A DNA stretch of 64,000 bases from an uncultured virus (IMG/VR IMGVR_UViG_3300033175_000002) (lineage: Duplodnaviria; Heunggongvirae; Uroviricota; Caudoviricetes): IMG/VR virus record IMGVR_UViG_3300033175_000002; one strand, 5' to 3'. Shown one piece after another: positions 1 through 62,526 of the stretch (its first letter is position 1; the number at the start of each line of letters is the position of its first letter). A program made the position numbers and the translations under genes. The notes below the pieces were generated by a model. That model saw only the letters and a list, made by a program, of their open reading frames with translations. It was not told where the DNA came from and made no database searches.

Positions 1-337
1 GTCGAATAAAATCGCTGCATAAGTGGGCGTTCTACCAGCTGAAAGAATTCGTGAGCTATAAGGCTCTAGCCGCAGGTATCCCTGTGATACTGGTAGAACC
101 TGCTTACACAAGCAAGACCTGTCATCGGTGTCATCGTATAGGGGATAGGAAAGGGAAAGAGTTCTCCTGTCCTTCGTGTGGTTGGAGTGGCGACGCGGAC
201 TTTAACGGTGCTCGAAACATTGCTGATCTCGGGGCTGTTGTAAACCAGCCCGGAGGTCCGGGGTTGTTCTGCTTAACTATGGCAGAAAAGATTCCAGGGC
301 TACAGAAAGCCCCGTCCTTCAGGGCGGGGTAGTTTAC
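1..337 (+). mobile_element. Right end of IS200/IS605-family element
   Basis: Subterminal hairpin GCCCCGTCC-TTCA-GGGCGGGGT (309-330) followed by AGTTTAC, overlapping the tnpB stop, typical right-end architecture. Confidence 0.8.
3..332 (+). CDS. tnpB: TnpB (IS200/IS605 RNA-guided nuclease), C-terminal part, truncated by window start
   Basis: Frame open from position 3: LHKWAFYQLKEFVSYKA...VEPAYTSKTCHRC...FSCPSCG...DADFNGARNI (zinc finger and RuvC-III motif); visibly lower GC than the rest of the window. Confidence 0.93.
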   Translation, partial: RIKSLHKWAFYQLKEFVSYKALAAGIPVILVEPAYTSKTCHRCHRIGDRKGKEFSCPSCGWSGDADFNGARNIADLGAVVNQPGGPGLFCLTMAEKIPGLQKAPSFRAG

Positions 338-410
338 ATCGGTTTTCTCCTTGGGCCGAGAGCTCGGTCCGGGCCGGGCGATCCCCGGCCCACTATCACA
401 TTTCTCGAAC

Positions 411-600: not shown

Positions 601-619
601 TTGCGTGCGAGGTGCAACT

Positions 620-2143
620 GTGTCCCGATCGACCGACCTATTTTCAAAACCGATTGACTACGATACCGTGAACGAGGATGGCTATCCAGCGTTCGAGGCG
701 ACCGCAGAGCGTCGGTACCTTCAGCTGTTGATGTGCAACACCCTGACCTCCCAGTTCTACGCGACCGAGGGCCGCCTCCTGGCCGAGTCGATCCGGTGGC
801 ACCGGATGGCGGCCGCCGCCGATCCGGAGTTCATGGCAAAGGCCCTGGTCTACACCCGGCAGAAGGGGTACATGAGGCTTCAGCCCGTTCTCGGCCTGGC
901 GATCCTGAGCGAGCTCGACGACAAGAGCTGGTTCCGAGCGGCGTTCCATAAGGTGATCCTCATCCCGTCCGACCTTCAGGACTTGTTCGTCATTCTGGAG
1001 TCGCTCGGCCGAGGCCACGGAGGCAGGTCGATCAAAGACGAGGTCTCGTCCTGGCTCCAGGGGTTGACCCCCTACTGGACGCTGAAGTACAACGGGCGGG
1101 GGCGCGGTTACAACCTGGCCGACATCGTCAGGCTGACCCATCCCATCCCGTCGACCCCAGAGCTGTCGACCCTGTTCCGATACCTCGCCCGGGGAGACGT
1201 CCCGCTGGAGGAGCTGCCCGACCAACTCCGGTACTTCGAGATGGCGAAACGGACCGGGACCCCCAACGACCGGGCCCAGGCCATAGCCCAGGGGCGCCTC
1301 CCTCACGAGGTCGTCACCGGGACGTTCAATATGGATCCGACCCTCTGGTCGGTCCTCGTCCCGAACCTTCCGCTGGGGGCGTTGCTCCGGTTCCTGAGAA
1401 CCCTCGAACGTCATCAGGTCCTCGATGAGCATCGGGGCCCCATCACCGAGCGACTCATGAACCCTTCCGCCATCAAGGCGGCAAAACTGCATCCGGTAGC
1501 GCTCTACAAAGCCTGGTCGGCCGTGTCGGCCCACTGGCTCAAAGCAGCCCTTGAGGGTGCGATCTCGGAGTCGGTCAAGTCGTTGCCCCGGATCCCAGGC
1601 CGGACCGCTATCCTGCTCGATACCTCCGGCAGCATGGCGGGCGTTCAGGCGTTGGCGGCCCTGTTCGCTCTCACACTTCATGAACAGAGCGCCGACGCCG
1701 TCCTGATCGAGTTCGGCTCCGCTGCCCAGGCAATCCCCGTCTCCGAGATGATCGCGTCGAAAGGGTTCCTCGGTGCAGCCTCCGGGTTCGAGGCCATGGG
1801 CTACACTGACCTGGGGGCGCCGATCAGGATGCTGCATCAGCTCCGGCCCACCGTCGACCACGTCGTCGTAGTGACTGACGAGCAGCAGAACGCCGGACCG
1901 AGGTTCGTCGAAGAGATGAAGACCCTCCGGGCCGCGACCGAGACCCCGGTCCGGTCGGTGGTCGTTGACGTTCAGGCCGCTCGGGGGGCAATCGCCCCTC
2001 CTGACGACCCGTTGACCTGGTGGGTCTACGGCTGGTCCGACATCGTCCCCACTCACGTTTGGTCAATCCTGACCCAGAACTTAGACCAGTCCGGAGAGGT
2101 CCGGGCCGTTCAGCTCGACTTCGCCGAGGAGGAGGAGGCTTAA
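620..2143 (+). CDS. TROVE-domain protein with C-terminal vWA domain (Ro60/Rsr-like RNA-binding protein)
   Basis: VNEDGYPAF, LMCNTLTSQFYA, DPEFMAKALVYTR..GYMRLQP, DIVRLTHP, ALLRFLRTL, LLDTSGSM (MIDAS), VTDEQQN; GTG at 620 after GAGGTG. Confidence 0.92.
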   Translation: MSRSTDLFSKPIDYDTVNEDGYPAFEATAERRYLQLLMCNTLTSQFYATEGRLLAESIRWHRMAAAADPEFMAKALVYTRQKGYMRLQPVLGLAILSELDDKSWFRAAFHKVILIPSDLQDLFVILESLGRGHGGRSIKDEVSSWLQGLTPYWTLKYNGRGRGYNLADIVRLTHPIPSTPELSTLFRYLARGDVPLEELPDQLRYFEMAKRTGTPNDRAQAIAQGRLPHEVVTGTFNMDPTLWSVLVPNLPLGALLRFLRTLERHQVLDEHRGPITERLMNPSAIKAAKLHPVALYKAWSAVSAHWLKAALEGAISESVKSLPRIPGRTAILLDTSGSMAGVQALAALFALTLHEQSADAVLIEFGSAAQAIPVSEMIASKGFLGAASGFEAMGYTDLGAPIRMLHQLRPTVDHVVVVTDEQQNAGPRFVEEMKTLRAATETPVRSVVVDVQAARGAIAPPDDPLTWWVYGWSDIVPTHVWSILTQNLDQSGEVRAVQLDFAEEEEA

Positions 2144-2446: not shown

Positions 2447-2476
2447 GTAGTGCCTGAAAAAGTGCGAGGTGTAATC

Positions 2477-3406
2477 GTGTCCCAAAAGTTCTCTCTCCAG
2501 ACAGGTTCCGGGATGCCGGAACTCGTAGCGACCGCCCCCATCAAAAAGGACGAATGGGTGGGGACGTTCGCAGAAAAGGATAGCCTCCGGACAATCATTG
2601 GTATCGAGTCGGCCGCGACCTGGGAGTGCGACGGTCGGGCCCCCTGGCCGAAGATCTATTTCGGCGGAGGCCGGTACAGCTGGCCCGTCCTGGCCAAGAT
2701 GTACTACCTCTCCCCGTCGTCGACGCCGAACGTCGGGATCAGTAGGCAGATCGACCTGATCGCCCTGACGGACATCCCGGCTGGCGCCGTCCTGACCTAC
2801 GACCCGGCGACCGTCGTCCCCCACGGGAACGTCGCCCCGCTCCTGGACGCGGAGCCTCGGTACTTTGGATGCCTGTCGCCCACTCAGATCCGGGCTCTAG
2901 CGTCGGTCATACCCCTCCCAGTCCTGACCGAGTTCGGCGACTTCATCGATCCGCCGTCGATGATCCTCGTCGGGCGGGATCGGGTCGAGGCGGAGGAGCT
3001 CCGGGCCGCCCTAAACTCCATCCTCGGGGAGACCGGCCGTTCGTTTGAGGGGGCGCTGTCTTGGATCTACCCCGATCCACCGACCGGGGCGACTCTGGAC
3101 CGCCTCGGTGACTGGGGCGCCCGCAAAGAGTTTCTTTTCCGTGAGTGGGCGGGGTCGCCCATCGTAGCCGCCGGGGGGGCGGTCGAAGCCCTCGGGCTGA
3201 TGAACCTGTCCGGGCTGGGTTGGTACACCCACCGAGGCACCTCGATCGCCCGGATCCCCGACCCTCGGACGGTCGAGCCGGCGGCCGCCCAGAAGATCGC
3301 AGAATTCTTTCGAGTGGCTCCCGGGGACGCGAGCTTCGTTCACCAGTCGACCGTCGGGCGGGTCCGGATCAGGCCCCTCCCTACCGCCGGGTTCCCGAGG
3401 ATCTGA
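2477..3406 (+). CDS. Protein with degenerate N-terminal SET-like domain and unknown alpha/beta C-terminal domain
   Basis: LVATAPIKKDEWV...YYLSPSSTPNV...LIALTDIPAGAVLTYD follows the SET pattern (ATRDIxxGE...NHSCxPN...ALRDIxxGEELTYDY); GTG start after GTGCGAGGTG. Confidence 0.65.
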   Translation: MSQKFSLQTGSGMPELVATAPIKKDEWVGTFAEKDSLRTIIGIESAATWECDGRAPWPKIYFGGGRYSWPVLAKMYYLSPSSTPNVGISRQIDLIALTDIPAGAVLTYDPATVVPHGNVAPLLDAEPRYFGCLSPTQIRALASVIPLPVLTEFGDFIDPPSMILVGRDRVEAEELRAALNSILGETGRSFEGALSWIYPDPPTGATLDRLGDWGARKEFLFREWAGSPIVAAGGAVEALGLMNLSGLGWYTHRGTSIARIPDPRTVEPAAAQKIAEFFRVAPGDASFVHQSTVGRVRIRPLPTAGFPRI

Positions 3407-3699: not shown

Positions 3700-3998
3700 C
3701 CCCTCCTCCCCCGGCTAGACTTGAGGTCGTGGCTTACGTTCCGTCCCAGGGGTTCCACGTGCTCGAGCTTCAGATCGATAACCCGAACCCTCTTTCCAGG
3801 TGGTTCGGACCGGCGTCCGAGCTGCCGGTGAAGGCCCCGGTTCGCCTCAGGTTCGCGTCGGCCGAGAAGGCAGTTCTCGAAATCGTCCGGACCAACGTCG
3901 AGGAGCTGGCCGAAGCCCTTCTCTCCCTGGAGGGGGGCGGTGTTCTGGTCGACCCGACGGTCTGGGATGCGATGAGGGCGGCGGGGGCGCCGGGCTGA
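3696..3998 (+). CDS. Hypothetical protein
   Basis: ATGA overlap with upstream stop; coding-like composition. Confidence 0.6.
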   Translation: MTPPPPARLEVVAYVPSQGFHVLELQIDNPNPLSRWFGPASELPVKAPVRLRFASAEKAVLEIVRTNVEELAEALLSLEGGGVLVDPTVWDAMRAAGAPG

Positions 3999-4040
3999 CC
4001 CCCGGCACCCTTAAATATCATAATCGCCAACTAGAGACTT

Positions 4041-4200
4041 GAGACCTGCCTAGGCAGGTCGCCCGGGCGCGGGGATGAGATAGTCTCCAGATACCCTTTC
4101 CGTCAGGGGCGGACGGGGTGTCCTCCAGATACAAGACTTTCTAAACAGCATCTCGCACTGGCTGTCCCCGCCCCGGCCGCACCTCATACGGCTTTTCTCC
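4041..4200 (+). ncRNA. Candidate stand-alone small structured RNA
   Basis: TTAAATA box at 4011, 18-bp palindrome 4043-4060, long imperfect nested hairpin ~4062-4177, TTTTCT at 4193; a separate promoter follows at ~4214. Confidence 0.45.
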
Positions 4201-4250
4201 AAATTCGAGATCCAAAAGGTACATATAATGTGAGCTATATAGGGTGATCT

Positions 4251-4820
4251 ATGGTCCGGTATACGGTAGATCGGGCCGAGTGCGAGGTGAACCTTTTGGA
4301 AGACGTGTCCCATAGATTAGATGCCGAAGTCGTATCGGCCCCGACCACAGAGCAGAAACCGTCATGTAGATGCCAGATTGATCAGTTCAGGAAAGACCAT
4401 CGTCATGGGTTCGAAGACCCCGGAAACATTCCCCGGAAAGATCCCGGCTCGCCCGCAAAACCGCGGTCCCCCTCTATAACGGTGACCTCGTACCGGTTGG
4501 AGGGGCTGGAGCCGGCTTCGCTGACCGACGCAGTCGCCCGGATGAAGAAGGCCCGGGCTCAGGTGACGGTGGCCAAACTCGAGCTGCACGATGCTGAGGT
4601 CGAGCTCAAAGATTCCGAGGCCGAGCATCGAAGTCAGGGGTTGGAGGGGTCGAACGAGAAGCAGAGGGAGGCCGACCTCCGCTTGAAGATCGGGCCGCAG
4701 GTGGCCCGAGTCTCGGATGCAAAACGAATCCTTATCTTGGCCCGGGGCGATTTCGCGAACGCCGTTGCGGACGTCCGGCTGGCCGAATCCCTGATCGATC
4801 TCGCAAAAGCAGTGAGGTGA
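4251..4820 (+). CDS. Coiled-coil hypothetical protein (start uncertain)
   Basis: Promoter-like AAAAGGTACATATA and GGGTGAT RBS upstream; helical C-terminus with GSNEKQREA motif. Confidence 0.6.
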   Translation: MVRYTVDRAECEVNLLEDVSHRLDAEVVSAPTTEQKPSCRCQIDQFRKDHRHGFEDPGNIPRKDPGSPAKPRSPSITVTSYRLEGLEPASLTDAVARMKKARAQVTVAKLELHDAEVELKDSEAEHRSQGLEGSNEKQREADLRLKIGPQVARVSDAKRILILARGDFANAVADVRLAESLIDLAKAVR

Positions 4821-5510: not shown

Positions 5511-6121
5511 CCCTCCTTCATACCCAGCTTTACGTTGTAGACGCCACCCCTTACGCGGACCACTGGCCGGTCCGGAACCCTCCCGGCCTACAACCCCTAC
5601 CCAAACCAGTCGGGGGCCTATGGACGTCGACTTACGACAAGGCGAAAGGGAGCGAGTGGGTTCAGTGGTGTCTCAGAGAGGGTTGGGGGGTCCCACCAGG
5701 CCAGGTCTGGGACTGCTGCCTCATCGAGCCCGGGGAGACCCTGAAAATCTGCGAGATCAATTCGTTCGACGATCTGCTGCTGATCCACTCAAAGTTCGGT
5801 CGGCCCGGGTCGGAGGAGCTGACCATCGCCTGCGGGCCTGACCTCGATCCGATACCCCTCTTCAAACCGGTCTGGGCCCACCTCGACTTCGAAGAGATGG
5901 CCCGTCACTATAACGCTATCCATCTGACTGCGGTCGGTGCGCTCGAAACCCGGTTCACCAATCCGGGCCTATATGGATGGGACTGCGAGTCGACGGTCTG
6001 GCTTAGGCCGGAATCCCTGACGGTCCGCCCCCTCGGCCCGGTCCGGTTCGATCCGGTGGAGGAGGTGGAGCCAGAGTTTGATCCGAACCTGGTAGAGACG
6101 GAAGACGAGACCGGGGGGTAG
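5507..6121 (+). CDS. Hypothetical phage protein (KPxGGLWTS motif)
   Basis: GTGA overlap; KPVGGLWTS...LDFEEMARHYNAIHLT...LYGWDCESTVWL. Confidence 0.65.
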   Translation: MTLLHTQLYVVDATPYADHWPVRNPPGLQPLPKPVGGLWTSTYDKAKGSEWVQWCLREGWGVPPGQVWDCCLIEPGETLKICEINSFDDLLLIHSKFGRPGSEELTIACGPDLDPIPLFKPVWAHLDFEEMARHYNAIHLTAVGALETRFTNPGLYGWDCESTVWLRPESLTVRPLGPVRFDPVEEVEPEFDPNLVETEDETGG

Positions 6122-6332
6122 GAGCGGTTATGTCTATAAACGGATTCGATTACATGGAACTCGCCCGGCGACTTGCGGTTATCGGGCCGGCGAGACGCTC
6201 GGCCCGCGATAAGACCCGGCCGCGGCAGCTCTACGTCCACCCGGCGTTCAGGGAATTGGTAGACGGTCTACGGGGCGTCGGGCCGAACCGGGGCGGGACC
6301 CTGAGGCCTGGACGGTTCGATCAGGTGGTCGA

Positions 6333-6605
6333 ATGAGGGGGAACGGTTCTGCCGTCCACCCCTTGGCCGCGATCTCGTTCGAGCTTTGCGATTGCGCCTC
6401 CGTCCTCCTGGAGGAGATCGCCCGGCCCGAGTCGACCCGCAAGGACGTGGCGATTACGTACTCCCTGGCTCTGAGATCGTCTGAACCGGTTGACTGGGCT
6501 GCCGTGAATCGGGCGATCCTGGGCCGGTGGGAAAAGTCGTCCCTGATATGGATCAAGGACCGGGCATGGAAGCTCGCCGAAGGCAAGCCCGTTCGGTGGC
6601 GATGA
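6333..6605 (+). CDS. Hypothetical protein
   Basis: Operon-packed ORF with ATGA overlaps. Confidence 0.55.
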   Translation: MRGNGSAVHPLAAISFELCDCASVLLEEIARPESTRKDVAITYSLALRSSEPVDWAAVNRAILGRWEKSSLIWIKDRAWKLAEGKPVRWR

Positions 6606-6796: not shown

Positions 6797-7177
6797 TTTA
6801 TCCCATCCATTTTTATAAACCCATTTCCGACCCCGTAACGTATAGGGTTGCGGTACGAACCCCCCACCATTCTCATAGTGTCCGGAACGGTCGAGTTGGG
6901 ACCCTGCATTCGCCCGGTTCGATAAAATAGCAAGCTCCCCTCCTCCTCCCGCCCCCTCCCCCAGACCCCCACCCCCACCCACCTCCACCCTGGCCCCGCG
7001 CATCGGGGCCTATATCCCATAAGAATAGTTCTTCAGATGAACCGATCTTGAGCTGTTAGACCGAGCAACCTTACACCTGAAAGGCTGAATAACCGTCCAA
7101 CCCCTCCGAAAAACCCTCGAAACGCTTTTAAGCCCAGCCCCCCACTATATACTGACGATCTGGAGGACATAGCTGAG

Positions 7178-7627: not shown

Positions 7628-8007
7628 TGTCGACCCAAACCATGAACCCCGGACCGGGCTACTCGGTCAGTTGGTACGAACTCCGGTCGCTCGGGGTCCG
7701 GTCCCCTCCGGACCACCGGTCAGAGCTGGCGGCCGACGTGGGCATGGAAGTGAGGGGGTCGGGCGACGGTGCCTTGATCCCGGTATCGTCCGTCTCGACG
7801 ATGACTTGGGTCTCGGAGGAGCAGTGCACCACGATCGTAGTCGCCCGGCCGGCTGCCCCGTCCTCCGTTCCCGCGTCCGGCCAAGAGTTTCAGACCGTCC
7901 TCGGGGGCCTCGTCCATCAGGCCGGCCTCCGGATCGAACGGTACTCCCTCGATCCCGCCGGTCAGCTGGTCGACCTGATCCTGATCCGGCACGACCCCGT
8001 CAGCTGA
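7627..8007 (+). CDS. Hypothetical protein
   Basis: TAATG overlap with upstream gene. Confidence 0.55.
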   Translation: MSTQTMNPGPGYSVSWYELRSLGVRSPPDHRSELAADVGMEVRGSGDGALIPVSSVSTMTWVSEEQCTTIVVARPAAPSSVPASGQEFQTVLGGLVHQAGLRIERYSLDPAGQLVDLILIRHDPVS

Positions 8008-8014
8008 CGGTCTT

Positions 8015-8113
8015 CCCAGATCGGCCCGTAATTCGCGCAAAGTATATATGCGGTTCGGGCCATAAGGATATGTAGAACCCCCAGCCCGGAAGGGTGGGGG
8101 CGTGCGAGGTGCA
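8015..8113 (+). promoter_or_regulatory. Early promoter/leader module copy 1
   Basis: CCCAGATC-N5-GTAATTCGCGCAAAGTATATATG, GGAA-loop hairpin, GTGCGAGGTGCA; near-identical to 11688-11795. Confidence 0.75.
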
Positions 8114-8116
8114 AAA

Positions 8117-9223
8117 ATGCAAGCAGTGTCCCAAATCGAGCCGACCACTTACGTCGGTCCTACCCAGGTCCTTGACCTGGCCCGCAGCCTCGAAGGGCTG
8201 AGAACCGAAGCCGTCGACTACGTTGTCGAAGGCGCTGACCTGTACTGTCTCGTCGTCGAGCCTGACGAGATCTCGCTGGAGTTCGGGAAGGCCGCCCCCC
8301 AGCCTAACGTCTGCCTGGCCTGGCAGATCGCCGGAGAAAAGAAGACTCTCCCCTTGACTCGCTGGGCTCAGACCCAACTTTCGGATGCATGCGGTATCCC
8401 TATCCGCTACTGGGATCGGATGGCCGAGGCCGGCAAGTACGACCTCTTGGCCGAGAACGTCAACAAGTGGCTCCCCGACCTGACCGGTCGAAGGCTGAGG
8501 ACTTACCCGGGCCTCGTCCGGGCGGTAGTCAGCAACCGATTCCGGGCGCTGGACAACTACGACCTGCTGCTCGCCGCGATCAAAGCGGCCCGAGGATCGA
8601 CCGCGGAGGTCCAGAAGGCGGACGTCACCGAGTCCCGGCTCTACCTGAGGATGATCGACCCCGTCCACACAATCCGGCTGGGCGATGGGTCCGACCTCCA
8701 CCCAGGGGTTGTCATCCGGAACAGTGAGGTCGGGAACGGTGCGCTGATGATCGCCCCCTACTTGTGGAGGCAGGTCTGCAGCAACGGCGCCATCCTGAAA
8801 CACGCCCTCCGAGAGATCCACGTCGGGACGAAGGTCGAGACGGGACTCCTCTCCCACGAGACGATCGCTCTGGAGGGAGAGCTGGCGTACCGGGCGGCTG
8901 AAGACGTCATCACCACGATTTTCAGGGACCAGAGCCGGTTCGAGGAGTACGTCCAATCGATGGACGAATCCCTGGGGGTCCGGATCGCCGACCCGCCGAA
9001 GGTAGTCGAGTCGATGACCCTTCGGCGTCAGGTCACCAAGACCGAGGCGGAACTGATCCTGGCTACCCTGGTCTCCGACCCGACGATCTCCCCTGAGCAT
9101 CGGGGGACCGAGTTCGCCCTTCGGCAGGCTGTCAGCGCCGTCGCCCGGGACATGAAGAACCCCGACCGAGCCGCCGAGCTGGAGATGCTGGCCGCTCGGG
9201 TCTCCGTCGAGGAGCTGATCTAG
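8117..9223 (+). CDS. DUF932/DUF945-like phage protein
   Basis: AQTQLSDACGIPIRYW, RAVVSNRFRALDN, GVVIRNSEVGNGAL, RQVCSNGAI. Confidence 0.8.
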   Translation: MQAVSQIEPTTYVGPTQVLDLARSLEGLRTEAVDYVVEGADLYCLVVEPDEISLEFGKAAPQPNVCLAWQIAGEKKTLPLTRWAQTQLSDACGIPIRYWDRMAEAGKYDLLAENVNKWLPDLTGRRLRTYPGLVRAVVSNRFRALDNYDLLLAAIKAARGSTAEVQKADVTESRLYLRMIDPVHTIRLGDGSDLHPGVVIRNSEVGNGALMIAPYLWRQVCSNGAILKHALREIHVGTKVETGLLSHETIALEGELAYRAAEDVITTIFRDQSRFEEYVQSMDESLGVRIADPPKVVESMTLRRQVTKTEAELILATLVSDPTISPEHRGTEFALRQAVSAVARDMKNPDRAAELEMLAARVSVEELI

Positions 9224-9224
9224 G

Positions 9225-9632
9225 ATGTCTACTGAAATTTTGCAGAGTACCGATCTGGAGGAGCTGCGGAACCACTGGCCTCCCGGGGTCGAGGTGTTCG
9301 AGCTGGCGGCCAAGCTGTCGTCACTCAGATCGGTCTGGCCCACCGATATCGTCCGGGCCATCATCGAGCTGAAGGCTGAGAACGGCTGGAGCGACGAGTT
9401 CGCACTGCTGTTGACGGGTCAGATCATTGACACCCCTGAGATGGTTCGCCGATGGGTCGCCCACATGGGCGTCTCCTTAGGCATAATTCCCAAGGATTCG
9501 GTCTTGCCCCTTCCGCCTCGTGAGGAGGAGGTCGAGGAGGAGGGGGCGGACTCCCCCAACCCGTCCCCGACCCATGCGGTGATGCTCGTCAGATCAGATC
9601 GGACCGCCAACGACGACCCGAACTACCGATGA
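9225..9632 (+). CDS. Hypothetical protein
   Basis: Operon-packed ORF. Confidence 0.55.
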   Translation: MSTEILQSTDLEELRNHWPPGVEVFELAAKLSSLRSVWPTDIVRAIIELKAENGWSDEFALLLTGQIIDTPEMVRRWVAHMGVSLGIIPKDSVLPLPPREEEVEEEGADSPNPSPTHAVMLVRSDRTANDDPNYR

Positions 9633-10812: not shown

Positions 10813-11630
10813 TCCCCTCCCCGGACCACGTCTACCAGATTCCAGAATGGATCGCCCGCCAAATCCCGGCGCTGATCGGTCCCGAAGAATCGATCTGGGC
10901 CGAAGCGTACCCTCCGGCCGGCGACCCCGACCCGAAGATCGCGTTCACCACGTTCGAGACGCTGTCCCGGCTGGCGGTCGAACCCGTGCTGGCCCGGTCC
11001 GAGGGGGGCCTTACTGCCGCCATCGTCGACGTCTGGACTCGGGTCGAGGCCGAGCTCCCCCTCGTTCCGATGTACGTCCCCCTGAACTTCAGGTCCCTGG
11101 AGGCTTATCAGGCCGGGCTGTCGGCCCTGGCTTACTCGGTCTCCCCAGACGCGAAGGCGGTAGTCTACTGCGGAGAGGGCGGGGTCGTCCAGCGAGCGAT
11201 CCACGAAGGCTGCCTTCAGGAGACGGGTCGGATCGGTCCCTACACCCGAGACCCTACCCGGGTCTTCTGGTGGGCGGTCCTGACCGGGACCGACCCCCTG
11301 AGCAAGGCGGTCGTCGACTGGCTGAGGCTGATCTACGGAGATCATACCGACCTGCTGGCGTTCCTGGGCGGGCTGAACCTCTTGCCCCCCCGGATCAGCT
11401 ACGTGCTGTCCGACGGGGCTCAGTCGGAGCACTGGGACTCCTGGGACGGGGTCGTTGCCTCGGCATCGATCTGGTTCCCGGCCGTTCACCCAGTCCTCGA
11501 CCTGAGCTCCGTCCCAGATGGTGACGTCGAGGCCGCCCAGCACGCGATCGACGAGTGGCTGGATCGGGTGAAGCGTGACCGGGTTTTCCCTCTTCCCCTC
11601 CTCCAGATATCCCGCTTGAGCGATCCATGA
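10809..11630 (+). CDS. Hypothetical protein
   Basis: 273-aa ORF, ATGA overlap, GGAGG RBS. Confidence 0.65.
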   Translation: MIPSPDHVYQIPEWIARQIPALIGPEESIWAEAYPPAGDPDPKIAFTTFETLSRLAVEPVLARSEGGLTAAIVDVWTRVEAELPLVPMYVPLNFRSLEAYQAGLSALAYSVSPDAKAVVYCGEGGVVQRAIHEGCLQETGRIGPYTRDPTRVFWWAVLTGTDPLSKAVVDWLRLIYGDHTDLLAFLGGLNLLPPRISYVLSDGAQSEHWDSWDGVVASASIWFPAVHPVLDLSSVPDGDVEAAQHAIDEWLDRVKRDRVFPLPLLQISRLSDP

Positions 11631-11687: not shown

Positions 11688-11795
11688 CCCCAGATCATGC
11701 TGTAATTCGCGCAAAGTTTATATGGAATACGGCCCTATATAGTATTTGAGGGGCGGCCCGTGAGGGCAGCCCTGAGATGAACAGTGCGAGGTGCA
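11688..11795 (+). promoter_or_regulatory. Early promoter/leader module copy 2
   Basis: CCCAGATC-N5-GTAATTCGCGCAAAGTTTATATG, GTGA-loop hairpin, GTGCGAGGTGCA. Confidence 0.75.
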
Positions 11796-11801
11796 TGAAA
11801 C

Positions 11802-12083
11802 ATGTGTCCCTGGAAAAAAGTCGAAAAAGAGGCCGTGCGCTGCCGGGTCCAGACTGCGGATGCAATCAAGTTCCACTCTGACGGGACTGTGACTGCGATG
11901 CGCGGATACTTCTATCGGAACCGCAAGGCCGAGGAAGGATTGGTAGATGAGATCAAGGCGGTCCCCGGCGCAAGGGTCGTCGACTACGGCTGGCATGAGA
12001 GCCCGTTCTGCGGGGGGGCCAAGGTCGGATCCAAGAAATCCACCTACTACTGGGTCAAGTTCGTTGTCGATGGAGGTCACTGA
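11802..12083 (+). CDS. Hypothetical protein
   Basis: First ORF after promoter module. Confidence 0.6.
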   Translation: MCPWKKVEKEAVRCRVQTADAIKFHSDGTVTAMRGYFYRNRKAEEGLVDEIKAVPGARVVDYGWHESPFCGGAKVGSKKSTYYWVKFVVDGGH

Positions 12084-13210: not shown

Positions 13211-13425
13211 CCCCCGCCCCTCTGAAGGCCGGCGACCGAGTCCGGTTCGCGTCCCCGTTCGGGGGCACCGAGCTGGGCCGGATCGAGGAGCTTGATGATA
13301 TATCCGCGACTGTGATCGCCGACCAGGACGAGACCCTGTTCGTCCTGGCAACGAAAGACCTGATACGGGCCTGATCCGGGCCCGGTACCCCCGGATCGTG
13401 CGAGAAAATTTAGGAGTGTCCCAAC

Positions 13426-18666: not shown

Positions 18667-18803
18667 CGGGAACACTTTTTTATATCGGAGCGCCCCCAAT
18701 CAATACCAAACCAGTATTTCGGGGGCCCAAGCAGGCTCCCGGCCGATAAATTCGTGCGAGGAGGCTCCGACGTGTCCCATTCAGTCTATACAGGGGTGGT
18801 GGC

Positions 18804-24909: not shown

Positions 24910-25387
24910 ACGGGGGGTACCTCCTCCCGGCTTCCCTGGGAACCCACCCCTGCTCGGAGCTGGTCTCGGTCGGCGAGTCGCTGACCTACCACCACCCGGA
25001 CTACATCCGGACCTTCGCCCACCAGACCGCAGCGGTTGCGGCCGTCCAAGAGACTGCGATCGCCGGGCTGGATATCGCAGTCGGCGATCTGCTGACGTAC
25101 CTGAACCTCGTCTCGATGCAGTTCGGGCTGACCGTCGTCGCTGCCGAGGACTTGGATGCCGAGGACGAGATCGAGGAGGATGGCCGGTGAACCTGATACC
25201 GTGCGTATCGAACCCGGTGACGCTGGTCGTCGTTGACTGGTCAAACCCTCCGAACTGGGACCGGTTCTTGGCCGAGAACGATGAGGCCGTCCAGAGCGGT
25301 CGGATCTTCCCCGACGGGATGGGGCAGGGCATCGGATAATTGTTGGTCGGTCCGGGGAGGCCGGTCCAACAAATAGCTAGCGCCGTT

Positions 25388-28300
25388 ATGGGGTGGGGGA
25401 TGACGGAAGTCGAGGATATCGTCGAAGAGATGGGGAACCGGTTCGCGGTCCGAGTGAGCGACCGCACCAGAGAGAACCTGATCCGGGCCTACGGCCGAGG
25501 CGCCGACCTGGTCGCTTACGAGGCGACCGGGAAGACCGGGCCGGTGAGCCTGGGCGGGAGCACCCCCAGCCGCGTCGACGCGGTCATCAAAGAGGTCTGC
25601 AAACCTATCGAAGACTGGAACCGGCAGCTAGCGTCGGATGTCAGCGACGCGGTCCGCCAAAAGATGGCTGAGGGAGCCAGCCCCGGTGAGCTAGCCCGGT
25701 TCATCCGGGAAGACCTGGCCGAGAAGATCGGAGACCGGCCCGTGACGATCCATCGGGACGGCAAACGGCCTTGGACATCGACCCCTAAAAATTATGCAGA
25801 TCTCGTATCGAGGACCCTGCCGAACCGGCTTCGCAACGAGGCTTATCTCGAGCACGGCGAAAAGATGGGGATCTACGACGGCTGGGTCTCTATCGCTACC
25901 GGGGACGAGAGGATGTGCTCGATCTGTGGAGCGAGGCACGGTCGCTTCTTCCCGTTCGGCGCCGACGTCCCCCCATACCACCCCCGGTGCAGGTGCCGAG
26001 CCGTCCTCCACCTGAGAGAAGGGGCGACCCCTCCCGAGGGGGCCCCGTCTCCTGAAGAGCTGGCCTGGTGCAAGGTCGCCTGGGAGGAGATCGACGATGC
26101 CTACGCCAAGGTTGTCGCTCTCGACGAGGAACGGAAACGGCTCGCTATTCGAGCCCGCGGGGAGCCCCTCGCCGGGGCGGATGCTAAGAAGCTGGCCCAG
26201 ATCGAGGCCCAGATGGCCCGGCTCCGGAGCAAAGCCGCGAAGAAGCAGGCCGAGCTGTACCGCGTCCGAGCGAAGTTCCACGCTCAGATGAGCTGGCAGC
26301 AGGCTGAGGATCGGCTGCGGGTCGGGGCCGGTCGAGACTTCGCCCACTTCGAAGGGCTTAAGAACTCCGCTGCCCGGGACGTCGGCGCCGTCCTGAACGC
26401 CTACATGACCGACTACCCTGAGTTCTTCGCCGACCAGATGGGGCTCGTCCTGACCCATACCGAGATCGGCCGAGGGGCGGTCGATCGGACCCTTCAGCGG
26501 GAGATGGTCGACGAGCTCGTTCGGCGGGGTGCCTCCCGGGACTGGGCCCAGTTCGTCGTCGGTCAGCAGGCCAAAGGTCGCGCATCCGAGCTTGTCAAAT
26601 CGCTGATGATTCCTCCCGAGGGGATACCCTGGGCTACCCGACGCGGTGACCTGGGGGGTCTTCGCGTCCTGGTGCTGCACGACCAGACCGTCGGGGACCT
26701 CGACGCTCTTTCGGCTGCGATGCTGCAGGACGTTCTGGCTGGTCGGCGGTCGTGGGGGTCGGAGAACCCGCTCTCGGTGATCGAGTCCGAGATGGGGAGG
26801 ACGATCGCTAGCAAGCTCGACCTCGCGTACAAAGGGACCCTCCTATCCGACCTGTACGACTCGATCGGACCGGCCCGGATTCGGGACGAGCTGAGCGCCC
26901 AGGCTACCGTGTCCCGTCAGGACTTCCTGGCCGAGGCGTGGGTCGAGTTCCGACTGTCCCCGTCACCCCGCCCCCTGGCTACGGCCGTCGGCCGGTACAT
27001 GGAGGAGGAACTCCAGGTCTACGAACAGCAGCATCGGGGGCAGGTTCGTCCAGCGGGATCGCTCGGGGCCAGGTTGCTCGACCCGGCCACCCCAGTCCGC
27101 GGTGAGGTCCCGAAAGGGCCGAACGAAGCCGAGATCGATGCGAAGGTCGAAGAATCGAAACGGTTGCGGCAGCGGTGGGCTGACCTCGCGGCAACCATCC
27201 GATCCATGAACGCTCATATCAAACGCCTGGCTAGCCGGGCTGCGATACCCAGAGCTGAGATCGGGTCGGCCGAGGCTCGGTACGCTATCGCTCGGGAGGC
27301 CGAGACCGAGCTGACCCAGACCCACCGGGCGATCCTCGACATCGATGCCTGGTTCAGGTCGTCCGGCGTTTCCCCGGTGCCTATCGCCCCCTGGTCGGAG
27401 TCCCGGATCGAGCTCGACCCGATGCCCGACCTCCGCGGCGAAGCTATGAGGAAAGCTCTCGCGCTCGAAAAACAGATCGAGCAGGGGATAGCCCAGCTCC
27501 GGACCTGGGCTGCTGAGATCGAGGACTTCAACTCGAACGTCGTCACCGAGATCGAGTCGGGGATGGGCGAGGACGAGATGAGGTCGTGGCTGGCGACCGT
27601 GATCTCGACCCATAAAGAGATGCGAGCTCTCCACAAGTCGCTCGAACCTCTGGTCGCGCCCGTCAAGGAGTGGCTGGATCGAGACCTCGGTCCGGCCCTG
27701 GCCGATTCCCATCCCGACAAAACCAAGATCGCCCACACTCTCGGTTCCCTGCTGGAGATGATCAAGGGGCGGCTGGCGGGCGAAGCTGCCGAGAAGCTGC
27801 GCGAGGCCGCGGCCCCCCACCCCGGAGGCGTCCACGAGACCGCTGAGATGGTGGACCTCCGGGCGCGATTGCTCGAAACCGAGGCCGAGCTGGCCCGGCT
27901 TCGGGCCGAGGGATCAGTCGGAACCATACCGCAGAGGAACCAGCTCCTCAAAGAGGTCGTCGACATGAGGCGTGAGTACGGGGAGCTCATGAAGGCTGAC
28001 GTCCTCGCCCGGTCGAAGGTGCCTCACGGTCGAGCCGTCAAAGAATCTGATAAGCATCTTCGGACCTACCTGGCCGACACCTACGGCCACAAGGTCCGGG
28101 TCAATTACGGTGCGGTTGCGAAAGATAGCGCCAACCTGCTGAACTCGATGGTCGCCGAGTACATGGAGTACGCCCCGACCCCCAAAAAGGGGTTCGGCTC
28201 GATCGGTGACGCTGCCACGTCCGGCCGCGGTGACTATTCGTCCGCTTATGCGTTCACCAGCGGCAAAATGTTCGGGCCGACCGATCGGGTCGGGCTGTAC

Positions 28301-29965
28301 CTGAACGGGAGCTCGGAATATTTTGGGGACCGCTCGAACTTGATCGCGTCCCTCCGTCGAGACGTTCAAGTCGGGTTCCACCCGCCGGGGACCGATACCG
28401 AGAAGGGCGTGATCGATCACGAGATGGCCCACGTCCTCGACATCTGGTACGGGCTCAGCAACAATCGCAAAATTAACGCCATCTGGGATAAGCACTTCAC
28501 TAAGGAGATCAAGTCGGGACTGTCCGAGTACGCCCTGGAAAACGAGCGAGAATTTATCGCGGAAGCCTGGAGCGAGTACAAGAACTCGCCGAACCCCCGG
28601 CCCATATCGGTCGAGGTCGGTCAAGCGATCGAGGAGCGGATCGCGTTTACCCTCAAGCGGAAGGGTCGATCGTTGCCGGGTCGGGTCGAGTCCCCCAAAC
28701 CGACCGTCCCGCCCCAGATGAAAGAACGGCTCAAAAGCCTGAGATCGAAGTTCGGAGGGCTCCGACTCTACATCCTCACCTGGAACGAGACCGCATCGAA
28801 ACTCCAGGGGGAGGGGCTGGTCCGGTCCCAGGTCGAGACGTACGTCCGGCAGCAAGAGACCGCGCTCAAGAACGCTGTCACCGCTGCCCAGGTGGCCGCC
28901 GAGATCCGGCAGATCGAAGAGATGTACCGGGCCGCTGGAGAGGAGGTACCCGGGAAAGAGATCGATTCGACCGTCCCACCGGCGACCCGGCTCGATTTCG
29001 ATGAGCTCGTCGAGAAACGGGCCAAGCTCTCGAAAAAGAGGTTCGCCGACCTGCTCTCCCAGATGAGGACCCACCTCCGGGTCGTGGCCTCGTTCAACGA
29101 GTCGATCGAATCCCAGATCACTGCAGATGCGGATTTCTACGTCCTGGTGGCCCGTCGAGCTATTGCGGCTGGGGCCCTCCAGACCGCGGTCGAGGTGGCG
29201 TCCGAGCTGCTGGCGGTGGCCGAGGAGATCGAACGGGCGACCGGCGAGGACTACGTTTCGAAAATCTCCCCGGACCCCCGCGAGATCGAGCTCGTCGTGA
29301 CCGAAGCCGAGATTCAGTCGAAGATCGAGGAGGCGAAAAAGAGAGCCGAGGGGGAGGCGAAACCACCCGAACCGGTCCCAGGTGGTCCCAACCCCTATCA
29401 AGATCCCGGGTCAAAAATGTACGCCTGGGGCGGGTTCGAGCGCAGCGTCACCGCGGAAGAGCGGAAGGTCATCGACCGCTACTGCTCGAACGATTTCGAA
29501 GAGATCAACCCCCTCCTGAGAGAGAGCCGAAACTTCGTCCGCGAGGGGGACCCCGACCTGGTCGAAAAGATTCAGATCCTCGACGACGTCGTGTCCCGGG
29601 GACGCCTGAAACCCCAGACCGTCTACCGAGGGATGACCGGCTACCCAGAGGTCGTTCAAAAGTTCGTGAAAGGCGTCGGGACGGAGGTCATGGATAAAGC
29701 GTTTGTTTCTACGACAGCCGACCTCGACGTGGCAAAAGGGTTCGCGGCTGACAGCATGGGGCTACCTTCTGTCCTGCTGGAGATCCAAGTGCCAAAAGGG
29801 GCTCCGGGGGTGTTCGTGGCCCCCTTCTCCGAAGCAGTAACCGAGACGGGCGCTAACGAGAACGAGATCCTGTTGCCCCGGAACAGCCGGTTCAAAATAT
29901 TGAGCGCGACCCGCTCTTCAGATGGTTCGTATCGGGTCGCTGCCGAGATGATAGTGGAGGGTTGA
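25388..29965 (+). CDS. MuF (SPP1 gp7-like) head morphogenesis protein fused to two zincin-like domains and a C-terminal ADP-ribosyltransferase
   Basis: GDERMCSICG...PPYHPRCRC (MuF); HEMAH...LSEYA...EFIAEAW; INPLLR...TVYRG...FVSTT...ENEILLPR (R-S-E ART); start uncertain (25340-25400). Confidence 0.9.
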   Translation: MGWGMTEVEDIVEEMGNRFAVRVSDRTRENLIRAYGRGADLVAYEATGKTGPVSLGGSTPSRVDAVIKEVCKPIEDWNRQLASDVSDAVRQKMAEGASPGELARFIREDLAEKIGDRPVTIHRDGKRPWTSTPKNYADLVSRTLPNRLRNEAYLEHGEKMGIYDGWVSIATGDERMCSICGARHGRFFPFGADVPPYHPRCRCRAVLHLREGATPPEGAPSPEELAWCKVAWEEIDDAYAKVVALDEERKRLAIRARGEPLAGADAKKLAQIEAQMARLRSKAAKKQAELYRVRAKFHAQMSWQQAEDRLRVGAGRDFAHFEGLKNSAARDVGAVLNAYMTDYPEFFADQMGLVLTHTEIGRGAVDRTLQREMVDELVRRGASRDWAQFVVGQQAKGRASELVKSLMIPPEGIPWATRRGDLGGLRVLVLHDQTVGDLDALSAAMLQDVLAGRRSWGSENPLSVIESEMGRTIASKLDLAYKGTLLSDLYDSIGPARIRDELSAQATVSRQDFLAEAWVEFRLSPSPRPLATAVGRYMEEELQVYEQQHRGQVRPAGSLGARLLDPATPVRGEVPKGPNEAEIDAKVEESKRLRQRWADLAATIRSMNAHIKRLASRAAIPRAEIGSAEARYAIAREAETELTQTHRAILDIDAWFRSSGVSPVPIAPWSESRIELDPMPDLRGEAMRKALALEKQIEQGIAQLRTWAAEIEDFNSNVVTEIESGMGEDEMRSWLATVISTHKEMRALHKSLEPLVAPVKEWLDRDLGPALADSHPDKTKIAHTLGSLLEMIKGRLAGEAAEKLREAAAPHPGGVHETAEMVDLRARLLETEAELARLRAEGSVGTIPQRNQLLKEVVDMRREYGELMKADVLARSKVPHGRAVKESDKHLRTYLADTYGHKVRVNYGAVAKDSANLLNSMVAEYMEYAPTPKKGFGSIGDAATSGRGDYSSAYAFTSGKMFGPTDRVGLYLNGSSEYFGDRSNLIASLRRDVQVGFHPPGTDTEKGVIDHEMAHVLDIWYGLSNNRKINAIWDKHFTKEIKSGLSEYALENEREFIAEAWSEYKNSPNPRPISVEVGQAIEERIAFTLKRKGRSLPGRVESPKPTVPPQMKERLKSLRSKFGGLRLYILTWNETASKLQGEGLVRSQVETYVRQQETALKNAVTAAQVAAEIRQIEEMYRAAGEEVPGKEIDSTVPPATRLDFDELVEKRAKLSKKRFADLLSQMRTHLRVVASFNESIESQITADADFYVLVARRAIAAGALQTAVEVASELLAVAEEIERATGEDYVSKISPDPREIELVVTEAEIQSKIEEAKKRAEGEAKPPEPVPGGPNPYQDPGSKMYAWGGFERSVTAEERKVIDRYCSNDFEEINPLLRESRNFVREGDPDLVEKIQILDDVVSRGRLKPQTVYRGMTGYPEVVQKFVKGVGTEVMDKAFVSTTADLDVAKGFAADSMGLPSVLLEIQVPKGAPGVFVAPFSEAVTETGANENEILLPRNSRFKILSATRSSDGSYRVAAEMIVEG

Positions 29966-30414: not shown

Positions 30415-30628
30415 GTGCAGATCGGCCATAACTTGTGATAATTTTGGATCCGTAAGTCTGAAGATTCCGGGAAAACTGCTAAACCGCTACCAGGCTCGGC
30501 CGTCCTAGCCTCGCGTTGGCGGCCGATCTCGATCGGGCCTTTATGTTAGAAGCTCGGGTTTTATCTGGCCCGTTTATTCAATTTTATATCGAATTATCCT
30601 GGCCGTTGAATCTGGTTCGGGCCGAATC
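30415..30628 (+). repeat. Long direct repeat copy 1
   Basis: 30415-30614 matches 58281-58480 with 2 mismatches; similarity extends 14 bp further. Confidence 0.97.
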
Positions 30629-58280: not shown

Positions 58281-58494
58281 GTGCAGATCGGCCATAACTT
58301 GTGATAATTTTGGATCCGTAGGTCTGAAGATTCCGGGAAAACTGTTAAACCGCTACCAGGCTCGGCCGTCCTAGCCTCGCGTTGGCGGCCGATCTCGATC
58401 GGGCCTTTATGTTAGAAGCTCGGGTTTTATCTGGCCCGTTTATTCAATTTTATATCGAATTATCCTGGCCGTTGAATCTGATCCGAGCCGAATC
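58281..58494 (+). repeat. Long direct repeat copy 2
   Basis: Near-identical to 30415-30628. Confidence 0.97.
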
Positions 58495-58907: not shown

Positions 58908-59020
58908 GGCTCGCGTGGCTGGTTCCAGATGGGGTCCGAGGCATCATTTTAATGCGACCGTAAAGTAAATAATATAAGAGTGGGATACTTAGGGCAGAGA
59001 CTGCCGTGCGAGGTGGTGCG

Positions 59021-59359
59021 ATGCTTAGACGTGTCCCAACAGAAGTCCACATTAAACGCCCCGAAGTTTCGAGCCGGATCGATGCCGACGGAGTCCGGAG
59101 GCTATCGTCCCGAGAGATGCGGGAGAAGTGGCGGGTGCCTCCCGGTGCTGTTTTGATGAGATTGAACGGGTCGGTCCGGCCTGATCTGCTCGATCTGGTT
59201 GCCGATTCGGAAGCTTTCGTTTTCGGGTATCGTCTCCCTTCCGAGGGGTCCGACTCGATCATCGCGATGGTCGTGTCGTCTTCTCCCGGGACGACTGGGT
59301 GCGTGAGGACCAAGCTTCCGATCAAGGACATCCTCCCGCTTGATGAGGGGTCTCGATGA
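59021..59359 (+). CDS. Hypothetical protein
   Basis: GTGCGAGGTG RBS motif. Confidence 0.55.
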   Translation: MLRRVPTEVHIKRPEVSSRIDADGVRRLSSREMREKWRVPPGAVLMRLNGSVRPDLLDLVADSEAFVFGYRLPSEGSDSIIAMVVSSSPGTTGCVRTKLPIKDILPLDEGSR

Positions 59360-61733: not shown

Positions 61734-61806
61734 GCCCGCCCCCTCCCACAAGGATTATATTCGGGTGGCAAGATATAGGGATCTTGTATCTGGAGGTGCG
61801 GAAAGC

Positions 61807-62277
61807 GTGTCCCAACTCGATCCGGGATTATCCCCGATCAAATCGATACCAGTCGGTGATGTGTACCGGAGGCTGTCCGATCTGGAGGCCCGATTCGATT
61901 CGGAGACGGCCCGGTTATGGGCCGACAACGAAAAGCTGCGATCCGAGAACGCTGCGATCCGAAAAGAGCTGGTGGCCCATCAGGAGCGGCTTGCCGGGAT
62001 GCGGTCGGGTCTGCTTCATCTGATGGATCGTGAGCGGTCCTACAATGCCCAGCGATACCAAGATCTGGCAGCCCAGATCAGCTCCCTTGTCCGGGGCGCA
62101 AAAACCAAGTCGCTTACGTTCTCGGAGCTGAGGGGTTTTCTTCACATCGATGCTCCGACCCTGACCCGGGCCGCGAAAGCTGCTTGTGCTTCTGACCCTG
62201 ACCTGGAGATTTGTTTCGTAGCGGGGTCGAAGAAGGAGAAACAAATATGTTTTGGAGGAGATCGTTGTCTGCAATAA
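61807..62277 (+). CDS. Coiled-coil plus winged-helix protein next to candidate origin
   Basis: GGAGGTG RBS; heptads then LTFSELRGFLHIDAPTLTRAAK. Confidence 0.65.
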   Translation: MSQLDPGLSPIKSIPVGDVYRRLSDLEARFDSETARLWADNEKLRSENAAIRKELVAHQERLAGMRSGLLHLMDRERSYNAQRYQDLAAQISSLVRGAKTKSLTFSELRGFLHIDAPTLTRAAKAACASDPDLEICFVAGSKKEKQICFGGDRCLQ

Positions 62278-62526
62278 AACAATAATCCTGAGATTTGGAG
62301 CCCTGGAGAAAAACCGGGGTTAAAAATTGTAGTGTATGTATGTATGTATGTATGTATGTAGTCGTAACCATATTGATAGATAGATAGATAGATATCGATA
62401 GATATCGATCGGTTGATAGATCTTTAGGAGGTCAGTCGATTTGTGCGAGGTTTCGGTCGTCCCACCAGAAAATTGTTTTATTGCGCCAACAACCACCACC
62501 GTAGAAATTTCTAGGGTGGTGGTGGC
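62278..62526. other. Candidate replication origin
   Basis: AT-rich intergenic region with (TGTA)7, (GATA)5 and 32-bp palindrome immediately upstream of MCM. Confidence 0.6.

What the first reader, a model, noticed from the sequence alone, without database searches (positions are those of the whole stretch)
4011..4200. Stand-alone ncRNA candidate with a loop complementary to two viral ribosome-binding sites
Seen: TATA-like box, palindrome GACCTGCCTAGGCAGGTC, nested stems (CCGGG-GCGGGGA/TCCCCGC-CCCGG; GAGAT/ATCTC; AGTCT/AGACT; GATACCC/GGGTGTC; TCCGTC/GGCGGA) and a T-rich end. CTCCAGATAC occurs twice (4085, 4123). 4122-4136 is the exact reverse complement of 61782-61796, the RBS of the origin-adjacent wHTH gene, and 4119-4130 of 7158-7169, the RBS of the HTH regulator. 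Inference: trans-acting anti-SD sRNA (or second Ro60 ligand); alternatively CTCCAGATAC is a DNA operator. A few 15-nt matches are expected by chance in 64 kb; the support is that both fall on RBSs.
Basis: partly seen in the sequence, partly recalled or inferred. Interest (0 to 1): 0.72.

Follow-up and report, generated by a model that had tools for sequence, protein, structure and literature searches.

The report
Archaeal virus anti-ribosome-site small RNA
A tailed virus, probably of methane-producing archaea, carries a small RNA gene whose exposed loop matches a word repeated at the translation starts of many of its own genes, and loop and word change together in two related viruses, so the RNA probably switches those genes off, though this is untested.

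Summary
Loop 4149-4158 complements GTGCGAGGTG (one G-U). That word occurs 6 times on the + strand, never on the - strand (0.1 expected), each 5-8 nt before an ORF start and each followed by a second box, GTGTCCC (6 of 6, versus 1 of 36 other GAGGTG sites). Two related viruses carry an RNA of like architecture at the syntenic place with changed loops, and their ribosome-binding sites change to match: 5 of 5 paired + strand sites lie before ORF starts in L056/G002, 1 of 1 in L128. Best reading: a trans-acting RNA that blocks translation of a set of viral genes, working like P1 c4 but not of that family. Expression, repression, box B's partner, host and any immunity role are unproven. No Rfam match; not a Y RNA by the features tested.

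The parts
4010..4018 (+). TATA-like box of the RNA gene; start site inferred near 4041 from usual archaeal spacing (recalled)
   Evidence: TATA-like words also precede the relatives' RNAs (L056 7581-7587, L128 2739-2747)
4041..4195 (+). Predicted small RNA, about 155 nt; ends inferred
   Evidence: z -4.00 for 4041-4190; no Rfam match
4043..4060 (+). 5' hairpin (the 18-nt palindrome); L128 has a hairpin of other sequence at the same place, L056 lacks one
4063..4075 (+). 5' strand of closing helix P1 (CCGGG, bulged C, GCGGGGA); best candidate partner of box B in two weak registers (4065-4071, 4072-4077)
   Evidence: CCGGG...CCCGG closes the RNA in 3 of 3 viruses
4082..4138 (+). Inserted arm, absent in L056 and L128; stem 4090-4096/4116-4122 shows A-U to G-C and U-G to U-A changes in two strain contigs
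4122..4136 (+).
   Evidence: unpaired probability 0.65-0.99
4146..4164 (+). Guide hairpin; 4149-4158 CAUCUCGCAC pairs with box A GUGCGAGGUG (9 Watson-Crick + 1 G-U)
   Evidence: unpaired probability 0.78-0.96
4165..4176 (+). 3' strand of P1
4177..4200 (+). 3' hairpin with anti-SD-like loop and pyrimidine run (likely end); stem broken by G4190T in two strain contigs, not seen in relatives
605..626 (+). Target: box A 605-614, box B 620-626 at GTG start of Ro60 (TROVE/vWA) gene
2462..2483 (+). Target: box A and box B at GTG start 2477 (309-aa unknown protein)
4280..4311 (+). Target just downstream of the RNA gene: before TTG 4296, or codons 10-20 if ATG 4251 is the start
8102..8132 (+). Target at start 8117 of DUF932-like gene
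11784..11810 (+). Target at start 11802 (93-aa unknown)
13398..13422 (+). Shorter box A (8 pairs) plus box B before ATG 13426
18754..18778 (+). Shorter box A plus box B at a short upstream ORF before the radical-SAM gene
59006..59037 (+). Target at start 59021 (112-aa unknown)
61782..61813 (+). Target of the secondary guide (15 nt), with partial box A and full box B at GTG start 61807
62443..62452 (+). Box A (9 pairs) about 114 nt upstream of the MCM start, box B degenerate; L056 has its own word at the MCM start
7158..7169 (+). Weak possible target of the arm (12 nt) at the HTH gene start 7178; no box B

Best explanation
4041-4195 is a separately promoted viral small RNA. Its closing helix presents a hairpin loop that pairs in trans with a word (box A) built around the Shine-Dalgarno site of 6 to 10 viral genes, mostly first genes behind TATA-like boxes in the non-structural region (Ro60, DUF932-like, the origin-adjacent gene, the MCM leader, unknown proteins). 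Pairing covers the ribosome-binding site and so most likely blocks initiation, shutting many operons with one RNA. In this lineage an inserted arm adds a 15-nt guide for the 61807 gene, and a second box (B) over or near the start codon is probably a second contact, perhaps with the 5' strand of P1. SHOWN in sequence: motif, placement, complementarity, co-variation in three viruses, stem co-variation in strains. INFERRED: transcription, pairing in the cell, repression rather than activation, box B partner, timing or immunity role.
For: GTGCGAGGTG 6 on +, 0 on -, 0.10 expected; 6 of 6 before an ORF start by a loose rule with background 0.24, 4 of 6 by an automatic gene model versus 8 of 36 other GAGGTG sites; box B follows 6 of 6 versus 1 of 36. 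CTCGCAC occurs once on the + strand of 64 kb, in this loop. Syntenic RNAs in L056 and L128 follow homologues of the same upstream gene and fold best on + (z -3.18 vs -1.29; -1.97 vs -0.30). Their loops pair with their own start regions: L056 guide 5 of 5 + strand sites before ORF starts in 43,260 nt, L128 guide 1 of 1 in 4,999 nt. GTGCGAGG 9/0/0 and GCGTGGTG 0/0/1 on the + strands of the three viruses. Shuffled RNAs hold such a complement in 57, 25 and 43 of 20,000. Differences between guide and target are G-U compatible in all three. Six box-A starts rank 2-6 and 9 of 89 by energy with accessibility. Strain contigs: compensatory stem change; no change listed in 4121-4189 against 14 in 3856-3958.
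Against: No expression data. Only three lineages, one a 5-kb fragment with a single target; RNA homology rests on synteny and architecture, as MAFFT did not align them in structural register. Guide windows were chosen after seeing the targets. Energy ranking is poor for L056's whole RNA (ranks 7, 18, 24, 29, 45 of 63; hairpin alone puts 2 of its 5 targets in the top 9) and for 2477 and 18772 (19, 24 of 89); the best window hit is another gene (25400) through the unconserved 3' hairpin. Window and L056 guides cross-pair over 9 nt, so specificity is partial. The L056 site at 9631 probably lies inside the first codons, not at the start. Box B has no perfect complement on the + strand of the window and no counterpart seen in the relatives. 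In the window alone the - strand folds as well as +. A4078C would let 4076-4080 pair with the guide loop and could mask it (by-hand reading). One search showed 40 of 277 rows; 4 changes in the X17 contig and 10 in the X20 contig are unplaced.
Confidence: 0.72

Rival explanations
1. The RNA pairs with the same sites but activates or stabilises the mRNAs, or guides their processing, by opening leader structures in which boxes A and B are tied up.
For: Several leaders fold with box A or box B paired in cis, e.g. 58982-58988 with box B at 59031; hairpins lie just upstream of targets in L056 and L128. M. mazei sRNA154 both stabilises and represses targets (PMC5867862, passages).
Against: The paired stretch includes the Shine-Dalgarno core itself in all three viruses; the cis folds share no common pattern.
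Confidence: 0.1
2. Boxes A and B are binding sites of a viral protein (on RNA or DNA); the loop is an inverted operator copy or, if the - strand is made, a decoy.
For: 7 of 10 sites lie behind TATA-like words (6 within 140 nt; Ro60 about 190 nt); box B is invariant in three reading frames yet lacks a good RNA partner; RHH and HTH genes are present; - strand z -3.40.
Against: Sites are on one strand only, overlap the SD, with A-B gaps of 5-15 nt; the inverted copy sits in a hairpin loop in 3 of 3 viruses, differs from targets by G-U-compatible letters, and relatives fold best on +. A protein partner remains possible for box B alone.
Confidence: 0.08
3. A general anti-SD RNA aimed at host or late viral mRNAs; the match to box A is a by-product of SD likeness.
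For: The RNA holds three anti-SD-like stretches; the 3' hairpin gives the best energy hit, at 25400.
Against: The match runs 4 nt beyond the SD core into a prefix shared by 6 sites (next commonest prefix 3 of 42, not at starts) and changes with it in relatives, in L128 even inside the SD. Host mRNAs were not tested.
Confidence: 0.05
4. Y-like RNA bound by the viral Ro60.
For: 1.9 kb from the Ro60 gene on the same strand; P1 has a bulged C.
Against: No GNCGAAN0-1G motif and no TTCGA in the three RNAs; no tRNA-like call; in G002 the Ro60 gene is only 26% alike, on the other strand, about 8 kb away, and has its own tRNA-like neighbours.
Confidence: 0.03
5. The stretch is the minus-strand ORF 4050-4313, or terminator plus promoter DNA only.
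For: An 87-codon ORF exists.
Against: No Pfam hit; two single-base insertions and one deletion in the X17 contig shift its frame; ORFs over the relatives' RNAs look unrelated by eye.
Confidence: 0.02

Closest known systems
c4 antisense RNA of phages P1 and P7 (immI)
   Same: Small folded viral RNA whose loops pair in trans with ribosome-binding regions; encoded just upstream of a target; a few matched changes in RNA and target separate related viruses (PMC5320573 and PMC8198154, passages).
   Different: No Rfam match at this locus; archaeal virus; 6-10 sites spread over the genome rather than one operon; one loop gives both SD cover and specificity; second box lies downstream; RNase P processing and immunity not shown.
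Methanosarcina mazei sRNA41, sRNA154, sRNA162
   Same: Trans-acting archaeal sRNAs that mask ribosome-binding sites of several mRNAs, by loops in sRNA154 (PMC5867862, passages; PMC3432209, passages).
   Different: Host-encoded and metabolic; here virus-encoded, with a near-invariant target word that co-varies with the guide. Sequence homology not tested directly; no Rfam hit.
Tant antisense RNA of halovirus PhiH
   Same: RNA-based immunity control in an archaeal tailed virus acting on ribosome-binding sites of an early gene (PMC4284463, passages).
   Different: Tant is made from the opposite strand of its one target and triggers cleavage; this RNA acts in trans on many sites by about 10 pairs.
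CI RNA of satellite phage P4 (recalled, no call)
   Same: Small immunity RNA pairing with split target sequences in early transcripts.
   Different: Acts by transcription termination on its own operon in E. coli; not tested here.
Bacterial Y RNAs (YrlA)
   Same: Lies within 4 kb of a Ro60 gene on the same strand in this genome.
   Different: Lacks the 5' motif and tRNA-like domain described in PMC4201824 (passages).

Membership tests
c4 antisense RNA (P1/P7) | Match to the curated family model | tested here: not met
   No Rfam match over 4011-4200 at E up to 10, none in the window at gathering score, none over the relatives' RNAs at E up to 1. That Rfam holds a c4 model is stated in PMC5320573.
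c4 antisense RNA (P1/P7) | Three stems with two target-binding loops, one on the RBS and one on an upstream sequence | tested here: inconclusive
   Three-way junction with one conserved guide loop; second contact (box B) lies downstream and its partner is unresolved.
c4 antisense RNA (P1/P7) | Matched changes of RNA and target between related viruses | tested here: met
   Three viruses, three guide/target pairs.
c4 antisense RNA (P1/P7) | Encoded directly upstream of a target gene | tested here: met
   Next start region downstream is a target in 3 of 3 viruses: 4280, L056 7761, L128 2961.
c4 antisense RNA (P1/P7) | Cut from a precursor by RNase P to about 77 nt | not testable with these tools
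   No RNA reads available.
c4 antisense RNA (P1/P7) | Needed for lysogeny and superinfection immunity through repression of an antirepressor | not testable with these tools
   No integrase or antirepressor family among the proteins scanned; about 2.9 kb of the 66,877-nt contig is outside the window.
Bacterial Y RNA (YrlA) | GNCGAAN0-1G near the 5' end | tested here: not met
   0 of 3 RNAs; L056 has GGCGAA without the final G.
Bacterial Y RNA (YrlA) | tRNA-like domain | tested here: not met
   No ARAGORN call, no TTCGA.
Bacterial Y RNA (YrlA) | Within 4 kb of Ro60 on the same strand | tested here: inconclusive
   Met in the window; not in G002; L128 too short.
Archaeal trans-acting anti-RBS sRNA (sRNA41/154/162 kind) | Intergenic RNA with unpaired stretch complementary to several RBSs | tested here: met
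   (prediction only)
Archaeal trans-acting anti-RBS sRNA (sRNA41/154/162 kind) | Expression and translational repression shown | not testable with these tools
   No RNA run listed.
PhiH Tant-type cis antisense RNA | Transcribed from the opposite strand of its target | tested here: not met
   RNA and targets lie on the same strand, up to 55 kb apart.

The most novel reading that the evidence does not exclude
An RNA-only master switch of an archaeal virus: one small RNA, recognising a two-part word at the start of nearly every early operon and of the replication module, holds the virus quiet or times its cycle, and the changing guide/target word defines immunity groups among related viruses; new guides are added as inserted arms.
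Probability: 0.3. Interest if true: 0.88.

Novelty: new variant of a known kind. Interest (0 to 1): 0.76.

Why it matters
Gene control in viruses of methanogens is little known, and the RNA control described for an archaeal virus in the papers I saw (PhiH Tant) is cis-antisense on one gene. A trans RNA with a genome-wide set of targets that co-vary with it would show that archaeal viruses can run a regulon by RNA, gives exact guide/target pairs for a direct compensatory test of Shine-Dalgarno-dependent repression in methanogens, and offers three natural, partly orthogonal repressor/target pairs as genetic tools.

Tried and rejected
No RNA holder listed among 22 runs: no evidence on expression either way. 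Exact and gapped RNA patterns found nothing in viral contigs. The two-box target pattern gave 24 loci; 23 look like chance (one two-box site each, no protein similarity to the window) and one is the near-identical record G001. G001 starts at window 11673, so it lacks the RNA. Phage collection: two weak Rhodococcus hits, E 3. Protein-led scans with the 4251 protein, Ro60, terminase and the 2147 protein gave no further relative holding the locus; the genome scan gave five bacterial loci only. Of the 12 loci examined closely, L127 repeats the L056 virus and L128 is the third; the more distant DUF932 group (L129-L135, L155) showed no such RNA by motif or descriptor search, but these are fragments. 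No host genome set could be searched, so host targets and proviruses are untested. DNA alignments of the three RNAs were not in structural register, so no covariance model was built. Bacterial promoter/terminator scan is not suited to an archaeal virus. A search for a perfect box-B complement on the + strand found none; one non-coding site with a single G-U at 58982. A repeat check was out of register and was replaced. In the gene-start set, 6 of 89 window starts were entered by hand (replacing 4 automatic ones) and 1 of 63 for G002 (one base off); two of the six full box-A targets are among them. Literature searches showed no paper describing this RNA (listings only, except the six papers read in passages); subscription papers and supplements were not seen, nor the primary c4 papers.

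Full report
Setting. The window is most of a tailed virus with contractile tail (terminase, sheath, baseplate) and archaeal traits: MCM helicase, histone-fold protein and Ro60. The contig is about 66.9 kb. Near-identical DNA is held by sludge and digester runs. A more distant relative of its DUF932-like protein (41-42% identity) clusters with a protein from a Methanothrix MAG, so the host is probably Methanothrix; this is inference. Nearly all genes lie on the + strand.

Observation. The 15-nt match to 61782-61796 is beyond chance once its place is counted (27 of 20,000 shuffles hit any of 89 start regions; 688 hit anywhere); the 12-nt match alone is not striking (899 of 20,000). The region folds better than shuffles on both strands. 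Rfam and ARAGORN give nothing here.

GTGCGAGGTG (box A) occurs 6 times on the + strand and never on the - strand, against 0.10 expected. All six lie 5-8 nt before a start codon of an ORF of 93-507 codons (605, 2462, 4280, 8102, 11784, 59006). The loose rule has a background of 0.24 per site; an automatic gene model places 4 of the 6 at starts, against 8 of 36 other GAGGTG sites. GTGTCCC occurs 16 times on + and never on - (2.5 and 1.3 expected). Shorter box-A sites with box B lie at 13398 and 18754, and a box A alone at 62443 upstream of MCM. The only + strand CTCGCAC in 64 kb is in the loop of hairpin 4146-4164, predicted open (0.78-0.96 unpaired); 4149-4158 pairs with box A by 9 Watson-Crick pairs and one G-U.

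Strains. Contigs from two other runs (X17, X20; one contig each, depth 20 and 3.3) share A4093G with T4119C (A-U to G-C), G4120A (U-G to U-A), C4096T, T4097C, A4078C, C4062T and two single-base insertions. This supports the arm's stem on the + strand, alters the first CTCCAGATAC copy, and, with the deletion at 4192 in X17, shifts the frame of the minus-strand ORF. No change is listed in 4121-4189, against 14 shared ones in 3856-3958; only 40 of 277 rows were shown, and 4 (X17) and 10 (X20) changes of these contigs are unplaced.

Relatives. Searches with the DUF932-like protein gave two related viruses: L056 (record G002, 59% identity; L127 overlaps and extends it) and L128 (57%, 5 kb). Both keep the gene order of window genes 2147, 2477 and 3696. 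At the place of the RNA (in L128 after one extra gene) each has a TATA-like word, a helix closed by CCGGG...CCCGG, an A/U-rich linker, a 3' hairpin, a pyrimidine run, and then the next promoter. Both fold better on + than -. The loops differ: UCCUCGCAGA in L056, UGCACCACGC in L128. The start regions differ to match. In 43,260 nt held of the L056 virus, 5 of 5 + strand sites pairing 9 or more nt with its guide lie before ORF starts, among them MCM and the gene next to the RNA (one probably inside the first codons); GTGCGAGG is absent there. In L128 the single paired site is the next ribosome-binding site, GCGTGGTGTA, a word absent from the other two viruses. CTGCGAGG also occurs 4 times on the window's + strand, none at a modelled gene start. 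Shuffled RNAs hold such complements in 57, 25 and 43 of 20,000; the words were picked after inspection, so these are not clean P values, but the loop position is fixed by structure and synteny.

Energy ranking with accessibility. Window RNA against 89 start regions: box-A genes rank 2, 3, 4, 5, 6, 9, 19 and 24; 61807 ranks 8 through the arm; 7178 ranks 14; rank 1 is gene 25400 through the unconserved 3' hairpin. L128: 1 of 8. L056: 7, 18, 24, 29, 45 of 63 with the whole RNA, whose pyrimidine tail dominates; with the hairpin alone MCM ranks 1 and the neighbour gene 6, the other three fall outside the top 9. Window and L056 guides cross-pair over 9 nt, so discrimination between those two is slight.

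Mechanism. Most likely the loop nucleates on box A and covers the Shine-Dalgarno core, blocking initiation, as described for M. mazei sRNA41 and loop 2 of sRNA154 (PMC5867862, passages). Seven of ten sites lie in leaders behind TATA-like words and none of the ten in the head and tail module, so one RNA could silence the early and replication genes together. Whether this is timing, a quiet carrier state or immunity is open: no integrase or antirepressor family was found among the proteins scanned. Box B lies in three reading frames, so it is constrained as nucleotides; its best partners in the RNA are weak and lie in P1's 5' strand (-11.9 and -8.0 kcal/mol); a protein, a cis partner (58982) or an RNA in the missing 2.9 kb are possible, and no counterpart was seen in the relatives.

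Comparison. It works like P1/P7 c4, whose loops cover ribosome-binding sites and whose few matched changes separate the two phages (PMC5320573, PMC8198154, passages), but it fails the family model and has many dispersed targets, so it is not filed as c4. PhiH Tant is cis-encoded (PMC4284463, passages). Y-RNA features from PMC4201824 (passages) are not met. Nine literature searches listed no description of this RNA; the library lacks most subscription papers. An earlier scan note reports a similar anti-SD hairpin RNA in another archaeal virus; it is unchecked and I could not compare sequences, but it suggests the kind is not unique.

Verdict. Real structured RNA gene, about 0.9; pairs with the virus's own start regions, about 0.8; represses them, about 0.72; immunity-type master switch, about 0.3. 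New variant of a known kind; interest 0.76.

Noticed in passing
window 30415-30628 and 58281-58494: Two 214-nt direct repeats, 98% identical, non-coding and AT-richer, flanking the head/tail gene block.
   Followed up: no
window 8015-8061 and 11689-11735: Shared promoter module (79% identical) in front of two box-A target genes; L056 has a similar duplicated promoter-leader with a GAAA hairpin at 7735-7785 and 11180-11230.
   Followed up: partly
window about 425-604: Long, strongly pairing leader between a TATA-like word and the Ro60 start; possible Ro60-associated RNA, no full Y-RNA motif.
   Followed up: partly
window 51-347: C-terminal piece of a TnpB-like ORF with an IS200/IS605-type end; weak HgcC, sot0042 and HEARO hits. 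TnpB label recalled from the sequence pattern.
   Followed up: no
window 25340-29965: 1541-codon head-morphogenesis protein with a C-terminal ADP-ribosyltransferase-like family hit.
   Followed up: no
L125 8300-10300 (record G002): A second, distant Ro60 gene (26% identity) on the minus strand with repeated tRNA-like elements upstream, one called tRNA-Thr; they look like YrlA-type RNAs.
   Followed up: partly
window 62330-62420 and L056 2230-2380: AT-rich short tandem repeats between the wHTH-like gene and MCM in both viruses; probable replication origin.
   Followed up: no
window 37456-37665: 42-nt tandem repeat inside a structural-region gene.
   Followed up: no
window 6046-6316 and 6326-6547: Deletions of 269 and 220 nt in strain contigs of runs X18 and X17, removing small genes.
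   Followed up: no
window 2477-3406: Target gene product has a SET-domain-like stretch by eye (recalled motif); no Pfam hit.
   Followed up: no
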